UHGV virus genome: UHGV-1736226
Source: a virus
Length of the DNA: 13,328 nucleotides
Reading direction: 5' to 3' (one strand)
Shown piece by piece: positions 7,603 through 12,576 of this stretch. The position numbers and the translations under genes are program-made. The notes beneath the pieces are model-generated. The model was given only the letters and a program-made list of their open reading frames with translations, did no database searches and was not told the DNA's origin. Position 1 is the stretch's first letter. The number at the start of each line of letters is the position of its first letter.

Positions 7603-8000
7603 ACCGACATACACAAATCCGCCAGGCCGTACTGGCACGCCTTCGGGAACAGTGTGGAGACAGCGCCACGTTTTTTGACGGGCTTCCGGCATTTATTGAT
7701 GCGCAGGAACTGCCTGCCGTGGTGGTGTGGCTGAGTGATGCTCAGTACACCGGAAAAATGACGGATGAAGATGACTGGCAGGCTGTTCTGCATATTGCCG
7801 TCTTCATCCGGGCACAGGCACCGGATTCAGAGCTGGATATGTGGATGGAGAGCACCATTTTCCCTGCCCTGAATGATATACCGGCACTTTCCGGACTCAT
7901 CGACACCCTGATCCCACTCGGTTTTAACTATCAACGTGATAATGAGATGGCCACCTGGGCGATGGCGGAAATCACGTACCAGATCACGTACACGAATTAA
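7599..8000 (+). CDS. U: Tail terminator protein, lambda gpU homolog
   Basis: 133 aa from the ATG at 7599 (ATGA overlap with the Z stop); matches lambda U in ATFFDG, PAVVVWL, AEYTG-like, PDSELDMWMES and IPALS motifs. An alternative ATG at 7587 would add 4 codons. Confidence 0.88.
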   Translation: MNRHTQIRQAVLARLREQCGDSATFFDGLPAFIDAQELPAVVVWLSDAQYTGKMTDEDDWQAVLHIAVFIRAQAPDSELDMWMESTIFPALNDIPALSGLIDTLIPLGFNYQRDNEMATWAMAEITYQITYTN

Positions 8001-8010
8001 GGAGGTGGTA

Positions 8011-8754
8011 ATGACCACACCAAATCCACTGGCAAAGACGAAAGGTGCGGGGACGACGTTCTGGATGTATACCGGCAACGGCGACGCATTTGCGAACCCT
8101 TTGTCGGACACTGACTGGCTGCGTCTTGCGATGGTGAAGGATCTGCAACCTGGCGAAATGACCGCTGATGCAGAAGATGACACTTATCTCGATGATGAAG
8201 ATGCAGACTGGAAAACGACAACCCAGGGGCAGAAATCCGTTGGTGATACTTCGGCGACGCTGGCCTGGCGTCCGGGTGACAGCGGGCAGAAAAAACTGGT
8301 TCAGTTGTTCGACTCCGGTGAAGTCTGCGCGTTTCGTATCAAATATCCCAACGGCACTGTTGATGTTTTCCGTGGCTGGCTGAGCTCACTGGGTAAAACC
8401 ATTGCCTCAAAAGACGTGATGACCCGCACTGTGAAAATCAGCGGTGTGGGGCGTCCGTATCTGGCAGAGGAAGGCACTGAAACCGTGAGCGTTACCGGGC
8501 TGACAGTATCACCGGCGTCTGCCAGTGTAAAAGTGGGAGCAACCACCACGCTGACCTTTACAGTAAAACCTGACGGAGCCAGTGACAAAGCGATCAGTGT
8601 GCATTCGTCAGATCCACAGACTGCCACGGTGACCCTGAACGGGCTTGTAGCCACGGTGAAAGGCGTGAAGCAGGGCAGTGTCAGCATTGTGGGCATGACC
8701 GCTGACGGGAATTTTGTGGCTGTGACTGCGGTGACTGTCAGCGCAGCAGGTTAA
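8011..8754 (+). CDS. V: Major tail protein, lambda gpV homolog with C-terminal Ig-like domain
   Basis: 247 aa; strong RBS AAGGAGGTGG; extensive identity to lambda V (KGAGTT.W.Y.G.GD..ANPLSD.DW.RLA.VKDL.PGE.TA; YLDDEDADW; FPNGTVDVFRGW.SS.GK; RTVK...VGRP); C-terminal T/V/S-rich Ig-like region. Confidence 0.95.
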   Translation: MTTPNPLAKTKGAGTTFWMYTGNGDAFANPLSDTDWLRLAMVKDLQPGEMTADAEDDTYLDDEDADWKTTTQGQKSVGDTSATLAWRPGDSGQKKLVQLFDSGEVCAFRIKYPNGTVDVFRGWLSSLGKTIASKDVMTRTVKISGVGRPYLAEEGTETVSVTGLTVSPASASVKVGATTTLTFTVKPDGASDKAISVHSSDPQTATVTLNGLVATVKGVKQGSVSIVGMTADGNFVAVTAVTVSAAG

Positions 8755-8774
8755 CAGGACGATACTCATCATTT

Positions 8775-8798
8775 GCCCCGGTTATCCGGGGCTTTTTT
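8775..8798 (+). terminator. Putative rho-independent terminator/attenuator after the major tail gene
   Basis: GCCCCGG-TTAT-CCGGGGC stem-loop followed by TTTTTT, 20 nt after the V stop. Confidence 0.55.
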
Positions 8799-8811
8799 GC
8801 AGGTGGAGAAC

Positions 8812-9201
8812 ATGATGTTTCTGAAACAGGGCACGTTTAATTATGAAAAACAGTCCGTGGTGCTCAGTGAGCTGTCCGGGCTGCAGAGAATTGAATATCT
8901 GGCGTTTGTTCAGCAGCGAACGGCAAAGTTTGATGCCGGGGAGGGAGAACTGCCGGAGGCTGAACGACAGATTGCTTTTCTGCGGATGGGGATGGATATC
9001 AATGCCTGGCTGGTTTCCCGCTCACTGTGGAATGCGGATCAGTCTAAGGATGTAGAGACGCTTTGCGCATCCGTTATTACAACATGGTCGTATGATGCCC
9101 TGGGTGCGGGGGCGGAGATGGTTCTGTCGCTGAGCGGTATGGGGGCCATTGATAATGCCGGGGATGATGAGCATGAGGCGCTGACGCCGGAAAAGTCCTG
9201 A
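8812..9201 (+). CDS. G: Tail assembly chaperone, lambda gpG homolog
   Basis: About 129 aa; matches lambda G (MFLK start, VVLSELSGLQRIEYLAF vs VTLSELSALQRIEHLAL, SLW, VLSLSGM vs VLRLSGM); GGTGGAG RBS. Start could be ATG 8812 or 8815. Confidence 0.85.
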   Translation: MMFLKQGTFNYEKQSVVLSELSGLQRIEYLAFVQQRTAKFDAGEGELPEAERQIAFLRMGMDINAWLVSRSLWNADQSKDVETLCASVITTWSYDALGAGAEMVLSLSGMGAIDNAGDDEHEALTPEKS

Positions 9202-9539
9202 CGCGGGAAATGCAGTTTGTCATGCGGCTTGCCCGGGAGTTCCGGCGGGCAGACTGGCGGCGGATGCTGTCGGAAATGTCGGCCACTGAGCTTGGTGAGT
9301 GGGGCGATTATTTCCGGATGCAGAGCTTCAGTGATGTGTGGATGGATGCGCAGTTTGCCTCGCTGAAGGCATTGATCGTGAGAATGGTGTCCGGCAGCAG
9401 TGATGCTGCGGTGGCTGATTTCAGCCTTTTACCGGAAGAGAACGGGATACCGGAGCGAACGGACGAAGAACTGATGCATCTTGGGGAAGGTATTTCCGGA
9501 GGTGTGCGTTATGGACCAGATAGCCAACCTGGTCATTGA
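8812..9539 (+). CDS. Tail assembly chaperone G-T fusion made by programmed -1 ribosomal frameshift near 9189-9195
   Basis: The -1 frame relative to G is open from 9171 to the TGA at 9537-9539 and has no credible RBS of its own. A slippery-like heptamer G GAA AAG sits at 9189-9195 just before the G stop. The G then T arrangement directly upstream of the tape measure is conserved in lambda-type tails. Confidence 0.65.
9189..9195 (+). other. Candidate -1 frameshift slippery heptamer G GAA AAG for G-T synthesis
   Basis: Heptamer in the G frame (codons GAA-AAG at 9190-9195). A -1 shift gives A-site AAA (Lys) and P-site GGA (G-C, G-U, A-U pairing with tRNA-Glu); the -1 frame is open from 9171. Confidence 0.5.
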
Positions 9540-12500
9540 TTTGGGGATTGATGCGGCAGAGTTTAAAAATGAAATCCCCCGTATCAAAAACCTTCTGAAT
9601 GGTGCAGCCAGCGATGCAGAACGGTCTTCTGCCCGTATGCAGCGTTTTATGGAGCGTCAGACTCAGGCCGCCCGGCAGACAACGCAGGCAGCTTCTTCGG
9701 CTGCAACAGCCGCATCCGTCCATGCGCAGACGGTGGAGAAGAACGCACAGGCTCATGAACGCATGGCCCGCGAGGTGGAGAAAACCCGCCAGCGCATGGA
9801 GGCACTGAGCCAGAAAATGCGCGAGGAACAGGCGCAGGCCATGGCTCTGGCGGAGGCTCAGGATAAAGCGGCTGCTGCGTTTTATCGTCAGATTGACAGT
9901 GTGAAACAGGCCAGTGCGGGGCTGCAGGAATTACAGCGTATTCAGCAGCAGATCCGACAGGCCAGAAACAGTGGCGGGATTGGTCAGCAGGATTATCTGG
10001 CGCTGATTTCTGAGGTTACTGCGAAAACCCGTGTTCTTACACAGGCTGAGGAAGAGGCTACCCGACAGAAAGTGGCGTTTATCCGTCAGCTTAAAGAGCA
10101 GGCAACCCGCCTGAATCTTTCATCTTCTGAGTTGCTTCGTGCTAAGGCAGCCCAGCTGGGGGTAAGCAGTGCTGCAGAAGTGTATATCCGCAAAATGGAG
10201 CAGGCAGGAAAAGCCACGCATTCGCTGGGTCTGAAAAGTGCAGCAGCCCGCCAGGAGATAGGCGTTCTGATAGGTGAACTGGCCCGCGGCAATTTAGGGG
10301 CGCTGAGGGGATCCGGGATAACGCTGGCTAACCGTGCCGGATGGATAGACACACTGATGTCACCGAAAGGCATGATGCTTGGCGGGGTTATTGGCGGTAT
10401 TGCCGCGGCCGTCTATGGTCTGGGTAAAGCCTGGTATGACGGTCAGAAGGAGGGGGAAGAATTTAACCGCCAGTTGTCGCTGACGGGGCATTATGCCGGA
10501 GTCACTGCCGGGCAGCTGTGGACGCTCAGTCGTGCTATTTCCGGGAATGGTATCACGCAACATGCTGCAGCCGGTGCGCTGGCTCAGGTGGTGGGGAGTG
10601 GTGCATTTCGTGGAAACGATATCGGTATGGTGGCGAGAGTTGCCGCACAGATGGAGCGATCGGTTGGCCAGTCGGTCAGCGATACCATAAATCAGTTTAA
10701 GCGGCTGAAGGATGATCCTGTAAATGCCGCGAAGGCTCTGGACAATGAGCTGCATTTTCTTACTGCCACTCAGCTTGAGCAGATACGCGTCCTTGGGGAG
10801 CAGGGGCGGTCCAGTGATGCTGCACGGATAGCCATGTCTGCACTGGCAGAGGAAACCGGTCGGCGTACTGCGGATATTGATAATAACCTCAATGCGCTTG
10901 GCAGTACGCTGAAGTATCTGTCTGATTTGTGGAGTCGTTTCTGGGATGCGGCCATGAATATTGGTCGTGAAGACTCGCTGGATGAACAGATTTCCGCTTT
11001 ACAGGAGAAAGTGTCGCGGGCGAAAAGACTCCCCTGGATGGCATCATCTTCTCAGGTTGAGTACGATCAGCAGCGTCTTAACGAGCTTCAGGAGAAAAAA
11101 CGCCAGAAGGATTTGCAGGATGCAAAAGAGCAGGCAGAGCGGAATTATCAGGAGCAACAGAAACGCCGTAATGCTGAAAATGCTGCACTGAACCGGATGA
11201 ATGAAACGGAAGCAGCACGACATCAGCGTGAAATTGCGCGTATTAATGCCATGCAGTACGCCGATCAGGCTGTCAGGGATGCGGCGATACAACGTGAAAA
11301 TGAACGTTACGAGAAAGCCCTGGCATCCGGTAAGAAAAAAACACGCGAAACCCGTAATGATGAGGCCACCCGGTTATTGCTGCAGTACAGTCAGCAACAG
11401 GCACAGGTGGAAGGACAGATTGCTGCTGCCAGACAGTCAGCAGGCATTGCCACGGAAAGGATGACAGAAGCGCATAAACAGCTTCTGGCTCTGCAGCAGC
11501 GCATCAGCGACCTGGACGGGAAAAAACTGACGGCAGATGAAAAGAGTGTGCTGGCCCGTAAAGATGAACTGATTCAGGCACTGACGCTGCTGGATGTAAA
11601 ACAGCAGGAGCTTCAGAAACAGACGGCACTCAACGAGCTGAAGAAAAAAACAATTCAGCTGACCAGTCAACTGGCTGAAGAAGAGCGCGCTCAGCGTCAG
11701 CAACATGACCTGGATATCGCCACGGTGGGTATGGGTGATCAGCAGCGACAGCGATATCAGGTACAACTGAGTCTTCGCCAGAAATACCAGCAACAGCTGG
11801 AGCAGTTGAGGCGGGATAGTGAGCAGAAAGGGACATATAACACGGATGACTACAGAAAGTCCGAGCAGGCGCTGACGGAGAGCCTGAACCGACAACTGAA
11901 TGAGAATCGCCGTTACTGGCAACAGCTTGAAGTTGTGCAGGGTAACTGGAAAAACGGAGTCCTGCGTGCATTTCAGGATTTTACCGTGGATGCAGATAAT
12001 ACGGCAGAAACAGCAGAACAGGTGTTCTCGTCAGCCTTCAGCAACATGGGAAATGGCCTGGCAACTTTTGTCACTACCGGCAAACTCAATTTCAAATCCT
12101 TCACCTCTTCTGTGCTGTCAGATATGGCGAAAATCCTGGCGCAGGCAACCATGATGAAATCGATAAAAGGGATTGGCAGTGTACTGGGATTTGATCTCAG
12201 CAGCCTTTCCCTGAATGCCAATGGGGGGATTTATCAGTCTGCTGATTTGAGTCGTTACAGTGGCACGGTGGTTAACCGTCCGACGTTTTTTGCTTTTGCA
12301 AAAGGCGCGGGTGTGATGGGGGAAGCGGGACCTGAAGCCATTCTGCCATTGCGTCGTGGTGCTGACGGTAAGCTGGGGGTTGTGGCGGACATTGGTGGTT
12401 CAGGTATGGCGATGTTTGCCCCGCAGTACAACATCGAGATCAATAACGATGGCACGAACGGGCAGATAGGTCCGGCTGCCCTGAAGGCGGTTTATGACCT

Positions 12501-12575
12501 CGGGAAAAAAGCGGCAGCGGACTTTATGCAACAGCAGGCCCGTGATGGTGGTCGGTTAAGTGGAGCATATCGGTA

Positions 12576-12576
<1 letters not shown>
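9511..12576 (+). CDS. H: Tail tape measure protein, lambda gpH homolog
   Basis: 1021 aa from the ATG at 9511 (GGAGGTG RBS); N-terminus LVIDLGIDAAEF matches lambda H DLVVDLSLDAARF; C-terminus INNDGTNGQIGPAALKAVYD...RDGG nearly identical to the lambda H C-terminus; long Q/E/A/R-rich coiled-coil middle. Confidence 0.95.

What the first reader, a model, noticed from the sequence alone, without database searches (positions are those of the whole stretch)
9171..9539. G-T tail chaperone frameshift appears to use a non-canonical slippery site G GAA AAG rather than lambda's G GGA AAG
The -1 frame downstream of G is open only from 9171, so the shift must occur within 9171-9198. The only slippery-like sequence there is GGAAAAG (9189-9195). 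P-site re-pairing would need a G-U wobble at the middle position. If functional, this is a variant recoding signal that could tune the G:GT ratio needed for tail assembly.
Basis: partly seen in the sequence, partly recalled or inferred. Interest (0 to 1): 0.5.

Follow-up and report, generated by a model that had tools for sequence, protein, structure and literature searches.

The report
Known variant G-T tail-chaperone frameshift site
The phage tail-chaperone genes G and T here are almost certainly joined by a -1 ribosomal slip at GGAAAAG, a one-base variant of lambda's GGGAAAG that is strongly conserved, very common in E. coli prophages and already annotated as the slip site in phage N15, so it is real but ordinary.

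Summary
The -1 frame is open from 9177, not 9171, because a further TGA lies at 9174-9176. G (8815-9201, PF06894) is followed by a -1 frame extension carrying the T domain (PF06223). The only slip-prone sequence in the 22-nt window is G_GAA_AAG (9189-9195). It lies at exactly the position of lambda's G_GGA_AAG, and the Lys|Val junction is the same.

It is under nucleotide-level selection. In 39 representatives less than 95% identical, the Lys codon is AAG 39/39, the Glu codon GAA 30/30, and the preceding codon ends in G 37/39, in Pro, Ala and Leu contexts.

The heptamer is not new. The N15 RefSeq record annotates GGAAAAG as the "slippery sequence for -1 translational frameshift". HK225, mEp213 and Fels-1 carry it too. 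It was the commonest heptamer in my admittedly biased sample (154 of 182 unique G-T sequences). This G-T module occurs in 1846 of 5426 complete E. coli genomes.

In vitro work has used G_GAA_AAG as a "less slippery" control, so the GT yield may be low or may need help. An SD-like GAGG 10 nt upstream is a candidate stimulator, untested. I found no conserved downstream structure.

The parts
8815..9201 (+). Gene G, tail assembly chaperone, 128 aa. An alternative ATG lies at 8812. The 0-frame stop TGA is at 9199-9201.
   Evidence: Translation. Pfam PF06894 Phage_TAC_2, E=1.8e-39. RefSeq neighbours are annotated 'gpG: phage tail assembly chaperone G'.
9177..9198 (+). The stretch where the -1 frame is open while G is still being read, so the shift must occur here (22 nt).
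   Evidence: The -1 frame translation shows a stop at 9174-9176 and then an open frame. In relatives this window ranges from 16 to 43 nt and always contains the heptamer.
9189..9195 (+). Slip heptamer G_GAA_AAG. GAA (Glu) is in the P site and AAG (Lys) in the A site. After the -1 shift the tRNAs face GGA and AAA.
   Evidence: Sequence. Homologous to lambda G_GGA_AAG. AAG 39/39, GAA 30/30 and first G 37/39 in diverged representatives. The identical heptamer is annotated as the slippery sequence in N15 NC_001901.
9195..9539 (+). T part of the GT fusion, read in the -1 frame: 114 codons, VLTREMQF...SQPGH, then the TGA stop at 9537-9539. The predicted GT is 241 aa.
   Evidence: Pfam PF06223 Phage_tail_T, E=2e-14, on the fusion. 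tblastn of the fusion matches G and T of lambda, N15 and Fels-1 as two pieces each.
9175..9178 (+). SD-like GAGG 10 nt upstream of the heptamer. Candidate dnaX-type 5' stimulator (inferred, not shown).
   Evidence: Seven of 8 representatives of this clade carry GAGG, GGAG or AGGA 10-13 nt upstream, against about 9% of positions in G as background. None of 15 representatives of the N15-like clades do. The published spacing range for -1 stimulation is 9-14 nt (PMC5009743).
9511..12576 (+). Tape measure gene H, directly downstream and overlapping the end of T. It defines the synteny of the module.
   Evidence: Pfam TMP_2, Tape_meas_lam_C and TMP_4 on the ORF 9481-12576. The start is placed by the mEp460 annotation, offset 24 nt.

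Best explanation
This is the lambda-type G/GT tail assembly chaperone recoding signal. Most ribosomes read G to the UGA at 9199 and make gpG (128 aa). A small fraction slip back one base with tRNA-Glu on GAA and tRNA-Lys on AAG. tRNA-Lys re-pairs perfectly with AAA. tRNA-Glu re-pairs with GGA as G:C, G.U, A:U. Decoding then continues from GUC at 9195, giving a 241-aa gpGT whose T domain recruits the tail tube protein to the chaperone-coated tape measure.

Shown:
- the gene identities;
- the frame relationship;
- the positional homology to lambda's experimentally proven site;
- nucleotide-level conservation of all seven bases.

Inferred:
- that shifting occurs at all;
- that both tRNAs slip together;
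- the efficiency, which is probably lower than lambda's few percent unless the upstream SD-like GAGG helps.
For: 1. G matches PF06894 and the -1 extension matches PF06223. The pair lies between the tail tube gene (PF16461) and the tape measure gene.
2. The -1 frame is open for only 22 nt before the G stop, and GGAAAAG is the only slip motif there.
3. In the protein alignment the slip Lys is an invariant column from lambda to this phage, and the junction K|V(A) is in the same register.
4. The 21 distinct 3' ends of this clade all keep CCGGAAAAG despite divergent flanks. The window narrows to 16 nt in L092.
5. Among 39 representatives less than 95% identical, the Lys codon is AAG 39/39, whereas another invariant Lys column is AAA 29 / AAG 10. 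The Glu codon is GAA 30/30, whereas other Glu columns are about 50:50. The preceding codon ends in G 37/39. That G is kept in three amino-acid contexts: CCG, GCG and CTG.
6. N15 RefSeq annotates GGAAAAG as the slippery sequence. The HK225 record calls its product 'GT'.
7. A_AAG is the most shift-prone tetramer in E. coli (PMC4066793). Re-pairing of the GAA-reading tRNA to GGA through G:U has been proposed for many annotated mycobacteriophage chaperone frameshifts (PMC10885494).
Against: There is no experimental demonstration of GT from this heptamer in any phage that I could find.

In a reconstituted E. coli system, AUG GAA AAG gave mainly 0-frame product and was described as unfavourable for slippage (PMC6924986).

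A_AAG without a stimulator is barely above background in vivo (PMC4066793).

I found no conserved downstream structure and no Rfam element.

No deposited annotation of the close relatives joins G and T.
Confidence: 0.85

Rival explanations
1. The shift happens here but is a single-tRNA event. Only tRNA-Lys slips, on the A_AAG tetramer (the NNA_AAG hexanucleotide class). tRNA-Glu does not need to re-pair with GGA, so the 'heptamer' is really a tetramer.
For: A_AAG alone can direct -1 shifting in E. coli and is used by IS1222 at G_CGA_AAG (PMC5009743; PMC4066793). One relative, L247, has G_GCA_AAG, where the P-site tRNA could not re-pair. A middle-position G.U is regarded as a mismatch by Peng et al..
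Against: The base before GAA is G in every GGAAAAG-type representative, across Pro, Ala and Leu codons. Another Ala column uses GCG only 39% of the time. That constraint is expected only if the P-site tRNA re-pairs. GAA is never GAG (30/30), but both models predict that. L247 is a single metagenomic contig.
Confidence: 0.12
2. T is made on its own from the ATG at 9210, as most database annotations draw it, and no frameshift is needed.
For: An ATG-initiated 109-aa ORF exists at 9210-9539. The mEp460, PhiR47_1 and RefSeq E. coli records annotate it as a separate CDS.
Against: The ATG is not conserved. Relatives have ATT, CTG or other codons at that position, and no other start is shared. The only purine run upstream (GGGAA) sits 2 nt from the ATG, too close for a ribosome binding site. 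The frozen synonymous sites in the last three sense codons of G have no explanation under this model. In lambda the homologous T is made only as GT (Levin et al. 1993 and Xu et al. 2013, as cited in PMC5009743).
Confidence: 0.02
3. The A-run causes RNA polymerase (transcriptional) slippage rather than ribosomal slippage.
For: The sequence contains a short homopolymer (AAAA).
Against: Four A residues are far shorter than the runs known to give productive transcriptional slippage (general knowledge; topic reviewed in PMC5009743). The conserved features (G at position 1, G at position 7, and the reading frame of the motif) are codon-anticodon features, not homopolymer-length features.
Confidence: 0.01

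Closest known systems
Phage N15 genes 14/15 (and HK225, mEp213/phi80-like phages, Eeyore, Enterobacter phage MStein-2023a)
   Same: Identical heptamer G_GAA_AAG at the homologous position of a gpG homologue, followed by a -1 frame T domain. N15's record labels it 'slippery sequence for -1 translational frameshift'.
   Different: G is only about 34% identical to the window's G. The preceding codon is GCG (Ala), not CCG (Pro). The 0-frame stop lies 5 codons after the heptamer rather than 1. There is no SD-like motif upstream.
Phage lambda G/GT, slip site G_GGA_AAG
   Same: Same gene order V-G-T-H, same Pfam families, same slip position and the same Lys|Val junction. No downstream structure is evident.
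   Different: One base differs (GGA to GAA, Gly to Glu). P-site re-pairing is therefore near-cognate (middle G.U) instead of cognate. Lambda's site is experimentally proven; this one is not.
Salmonella phage Fels-1, E. coli phages mEp460, cdtI, Tritos, Ayreon
   Same: Same clade. G-T DNA is 97.5-99.5% identical in mEp460, cdtI, Tritos and Ayreon, and the protein is about 60% identical in Fels-1. All have CCGGAAAAG followed by the stop one codon later.
   Different: Essentially none. The window is a member of this group.
A_AAG / NNA_AAG low-efficiency -1 shift sites (IS1222 G_CGA_AAG, Bacillus cdd A_CGA_AAG) and the dnaX SD-stimulated site
   Same: An A-site Lys AAG to AAA slip by the single E. 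coli tRNA-Lys. There is a possible upstream SD-like stimulator at dnaX-like spacing of 10 nt.
   Different: Here the P-site tRNA can also re-pair, through G.U. There is no downstream hairpin or pseudoknot. The gene family is different.

Membership tests
Lambda-type G/GT tail assembly chaperone frameshift (Levin 1993; Xu, Hendrix & Duda 2004) | Two overlapping ORFs located between the major tail (tube) gene and the tape measure gene | tested here: met
   V-like gene 7936-8754 (PF16461), G 8815-9201, T frame to 9539, H 9511-12576 (PF06791, PF09718)
Lambda-type G/GT tail assembly chaperone frameshift (Levin 1993; Xu, Hendrix & Duda 2004) | The upstream ORF is a gpG homologue and the downstream part is a gpT homologue | tested here: met
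   PF06894 E=1.8e-39; PF06223 E=2e-14; tblastn to lambda G and T
Lambda-type G/GT tail assembly chaperone frameshift (Levin 1993; Xu, Hendrix & Duda 2004) | The downstream ORF is in the -1 frame, open across the end of G, with no conserved start of its own | tested here: met
   -1 frame open from 9177; ATG 9210 not conserved in relatives
Lambda-type G/GT tail assembly chaperone frameshift (Levin 1993; Xu, Hendrix & Duda 2004) | A conserved slippery sequence inside the overlap | tested here: met
   GGAAAAG invariant in the clade and frozen at synonymous sites
Lambda-type G/GT tail assembly chaperone frameshift (Levin 1993; Xu, Hendrix & Duda 2004) | The GT fusion protein is actually produced at a low fixed ratio to G | not testable with these tools
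   Needs a reporter assay, Western blot or mass spectrometry
Canonical X_XXY_YYZ simultaneous-slippage heptamer | Positions 1-3 identical and positions 4-6 identical, so that both tRNAs re-pair with only wobble-position changes | tested here: not met
   Positions 1-3 are G, G, A. P-site re-pairing of tRNA-Glu to GGA needs a middle-position G.U. PMC6924986 calls this a second-position mismatch.
Z_ZZN tetramer / NNA_AAG hexamer -1 shift sites of E. coli | In-frame A_AAG decoded by the single tRNA-Lys (mnm5s2U34) | tested here: met
   GA A_AAG in the G frame; motif class described in PMC4066793 and PMC5009743
dnaX-type stimulated -1 frameshift | An internal Shine-Dalgarno-like sequence 9-14 nt upstream of the shift site | tested here: inconclusive
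   GAGG at 9175-9178 with a 10-nt spacer. Present in 7/8 representatives of this clade, against about 9% background, but absent from the other GGAAAAG clades. Function not tested.
dnaX-type stimulated -1 frameshift | A stable stem-loop or pseudoknot 5-9 nt downstream of the shift site | tested here: not met
   Fold z-scores from -1.5 to +1.5 in all but one of 24 folds (the exception is L185 at +120 nt, z = -2.8). No consensus structure across clades. The only local hairpin (9196-9208) abuts the heptamer and is not conserved.

The most novel reading that the evidence does not exclude
Phages of this clade pair an intrinsically weak heptamer with a clade-specific upstream SD-like stimulator (GAGG/GGAGG, 10 nt upstream) and a stop codon one codon downstream. 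In vitro work treats G_GAA_AAG as 'less slippery'. The G:GT ratio would then be set by a dnaX-like anti-SD interaction rather than by the heptamer alone. On this reading the commonest G-T slip site in E. coli prophages works by a partly different stimulation logic from lambda's stimulator-independent site.
Probability: 0.25. Interest if true: 0.35.

Novelty: already known. Interest (0 to 1): 0.2.

Why it matters
The practical value is for annotation. This G-T module sits in about a third of complete E. coli genomes (1846 of 5426). The close relatives I inspected, and the RefSeq E. coli annotations listed over the match, show G and T as two separate genes with no frameshift join. The reason is probably that the heptamer fails the X_XXY_YYZ rule used by motif searches. 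The systematic enterobacterial search of Sharma et al. considered only canonical heptamers.

There is also a modest mechanistic point. A sequence that biochemists use as a poorly slippery control is the one that natural selection holds fixed at a site where a low, fixed frameshift rate is needed. It would therefore make a convenient natural test case for how near-cognate P-site re-pairing sets frameshift efficiency.

None of this changes what is known about tail assembly.

Tried and rejected
- **Downstream stimulatory RNA.** I folded +7..+67, +97 and +127 nt for 8 representatives. Fold z-scores lay between -1.5 and +1.5 in all but one of the 24 folds; the exception was L185 at +120 nt (z = -2.8). 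RNAalifold over 29 sequences found nothing shared. The N15-like clade alone gives a long-range stem, which is absent from the window's clade. Rejected for this window.
- **Rfam scan of 8600-9800.** It returned only a chance lncRNA hit, E=0.68.
- **Independent T start.** The ATG at 9210 is not conserved and has no usable SD.
- **Transcriptional slippage.** The A-run is only 4 nt.
- **Database proteins carrying both Pfam domains (P0026, P0044).** I checked whether they are annotated GT fusions. They are internal-deletion fusions with other junctions, and not informative.
- **Genome-contig scan with the single fusion protein.** Diversity had to come from four viral-contig scans seeded with different first sequences and from GenBank phages.
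- **Literature.** No open-access paper discusses GGAAAAG as a phage slip site. Xu et al. 2004 and Licznar et al. 2003 could not be opened. Whether they list or measure this heptamer is therefore unverified.
- **An automated anti-SD duplex score.** It picked inconsistent positions, and I replaced it with an explicit motif-and-spacing count.

Full report
**What is in the sequence.** The window is the late-gene region of a lambdoid siphovirus. Bases 8700-9700 are 97.5-99.5% identical to phages mEp460, cdtI, Tritos, Ayreon and others. The G-T segment is found in 1846 of 5426 complete E. coli genomes.

- ORF 8815-9201 encodes a 128-aa protein that matches Pfam PF06894 (lambda gpG tail assembly chaperone, E=1.8e-39).
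- It lies between a tail tube gene (7936-8754, PF16461) and a tape measure gene (PF06791, PF09718).
- Its last codons are CCG GAA AAG TCC TGA.
- The -1 frame carries stops at 9165-67, 9168-70 and 9174-76. It is then open to the TGA at 9537-39.
- A fusion made by shifting at the heptamer is 241 aa, and its C-terminal part matches PF06223 (minor tail protein T, E=2e-14).

That is 9177, not 9171, which leaves a 22-nt window.

**Is the heptamer more than chance?** The bare 7-mer occurs 5 times in the window against about 2 expected, so occurrence alone is not informative. Position and conservation are.

- I gathered 300 related loci from four IMG/VR scans, one scan of genome contigs and 13 GenBank phages.
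- In the window's own clade (G 57-100% identical) all 21 distinct gene ends keep CCGGAAAAG. The 30 nt immediately upstream are heavily diverged. The open -1 stretch is as short as 16 nt.
- In a codon alignment of 39 representatives less than 95% identical, covering the whole gpG family sampled, the Lys codon is AAG 39/39. Another invariant Lys column is AAA 29 / AAG 10.
- The Glu codon before it is GAA 30/30. Two other conserved Glu columns are about 50:50.
- The codon before that ends in G in 37/39. The two exceptions belong to canonical A_AAA_AAG sites.
- That first G is preserved in three different amino-acid contexts: Pro CCG, Ala GCG and Leu CTG. This argues that the nucleotide, not the residue, is selected.
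- These counts are not phylogenetically independent, but the pattern is unique to these three codons within the gene.

**Relation to lambda and other phages.** Lambda's G ends ...GCG GGA AAG TGT TCG ACG GTG AGC TGA. The -1 frame continues GK|VFDGELSFALKLAREMGRPDWR. The window gives EK|VLTREMQFVMRLAREFRRADWR. The slip Lys is an invariant alignment column, and the T frames align without gaps from the junction. At this one homologous position the family uses four heptamers:

- G_GGA_AAG in lambda, Turner and some Stx2a phages;
- A_AAA_AAG in other Stx phages;
- G_GAA_AAG in this clade, Fels-1, N15, HK225, mEp213, Eeyore and MStein-2023a;
- G_GCA_AAG in a single contig.

Among 182 unique G-T DNA sequences, 154 had GGAAAAG, 24 GGGAAAG, 3 AAAAAAG and 1 GGCAAAG. 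The sample is biased, because three of the four scans were seeded from GGAAAAG clades. Even so, the variant is clearly common rather than exceptional.

The N15 RefSeq record carries a misc_feature 'slippery sequence for -1 translational frameshift' at 10027-10033. That sequence reads GGAAAAG. The variant heptamer has thus been recognised by annotators.

**Mechanism.** From established knowledge of E. coli tRNAs, the single tRNA-Lys (mnm5s2U34) reads AAG poorly and AAA well. This makes A_AAG the most shift-prone tetramer: 5.6% with a strong pseudoknot, but near background without one (PMC4066793).

The conserved first G supports participation of the P-site tRNA, that is a near-cognate tandem slip (inference). 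The same GAA-to-GGA G:U re-pairing has been proposed for the GGGGGAA motif of many mycobacteriophage chaperone frameshifts (PMC10885494).

Against high efficiency, Peng et al. used AUG GAA AAG as their unfavourable 'less slippery' mRNA and saw mainly 0-frame product in vitro (PMC6924986). The expected outcome is a low GT yield. That is what the system needs: the lambda ratio is about 30:1 (PMC5009743).

**Stimulators.**

- I found no conserved downstream structure. Fold z-scores lay between -1.5 and +1.5 in all but one of the 24 folds. The exception was L185 at +120 nt (z = -2.8). There was no consensus across clades. A 5-bp hairpin at 9196-9208 abuts the heptamer and is not conserved. There was no Rfam hit either.
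- Upstream, GAGG at 9175-9178 lies 10 nt from the heptamer, within the 9-14 nt range reported for SD stimulation of -1 shifts (PMC5009743).
- Seven of 8 representatives of this clade have GAGG, GGAG or AGGA at 10-13 nt, against about 9% background. None of 15 representatives of the N15-like clades do.
- This is a candidate clade-specific stimulator. It is confounded by shared ancestry and by an acidic, GA-rich linker, so I treat it as a hypothesis.

**Rivals.**

- Independent initiation of T at ATG 9210 is what several deposited annotations draw. However, the ATG is not conserved, it has no usable ribosome binding site, and this model leaves the frozen synonymous sites unexplained.
- A tRNA-Lys-only slip is a mechanistic nuance that only mutagenesis can separate from the tandem slip.
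- Transcriptional slippage on four A residues is implausible.

**Verdict.** It is a widespread, already annotated variant of a textbook recoding signal. Novelty: already known. Interest is low (0.2). The residual value is in correcting genome annotation, and in offering a natural test case for near-cognate P-site re-pairing and a possible SD-like helper.

Noticed in passing
window 8775-8798 (+): A strong intrinsic-terminator-like hairpin, GCCCCGG-TTAT-CCGGGGC followed by TTTTTT, lies in the 60-nt gap between the tail tube gene and G. The homologous sites are annotated as rho-independent terminators in mEp460, Ayreon and N15. It probably lowers expression of G/T/H relative to the tube protein.
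   Followed up: partly
window 9175-9178 (+): SD-like GAGG 10 nt upstream of the slip heptamer. It is enriched in this clade (7/8 representatives against about 9% background) and absent from N15-like clades that use the same heptamer. It is a possible dnaX-like stimulator.
   Followed up: partly
L247 (IMGVR_UViG_3300048929_000058), heptamer at the homologous position: A single N15-like contig has G_GCA_AAG (Ala-Lys) instead of G_GAA_AAG. The P-site tRNA could not re-pair there, so the site would rely on A_AAG alone. Otherwise the contig carries a sequencing error or a defective phage.
   Followed up: no
L216-L257 (N15-like clade), +6 to +78 nt after the heptamer: RNAalifold predicts a long-range stem (GCCAGU...GCUGGC) enclosing a GC-rich hairpin in the N15-like clade only (-29 kcal/mol consensus). 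Many sequences are near-identical, so covariation was not assessed. The stem is absent from the window's clade.
   Followed up: no
window 9199-9201 versus relatives: In the window's clade the 0-frame stop follows the heptamer after a single codon (AAG UCC UGA). In lambda- and N15-like phages it follows after five codons. Whether a terminating ribosome so close to the slip site affects shifting is unknown.
   Followed up: no
mEp460 record, equivalent to window ~9413-9430: The mEp460 GenBank record annotates a second 'rho-independent terminator' inside gene T. My terminator scan of 8600-9800 did not find it, so it is probably an over-prediction.
   Followed up: partly
proteins P0026, P0044, P0001, P0002: Database variants of this G protein include in-frame G-T fusions created by internal deletions, a tandem partial duplication, and a read-through form. 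They are probably decayed prophages or assembly errors.
   Followed up: partly
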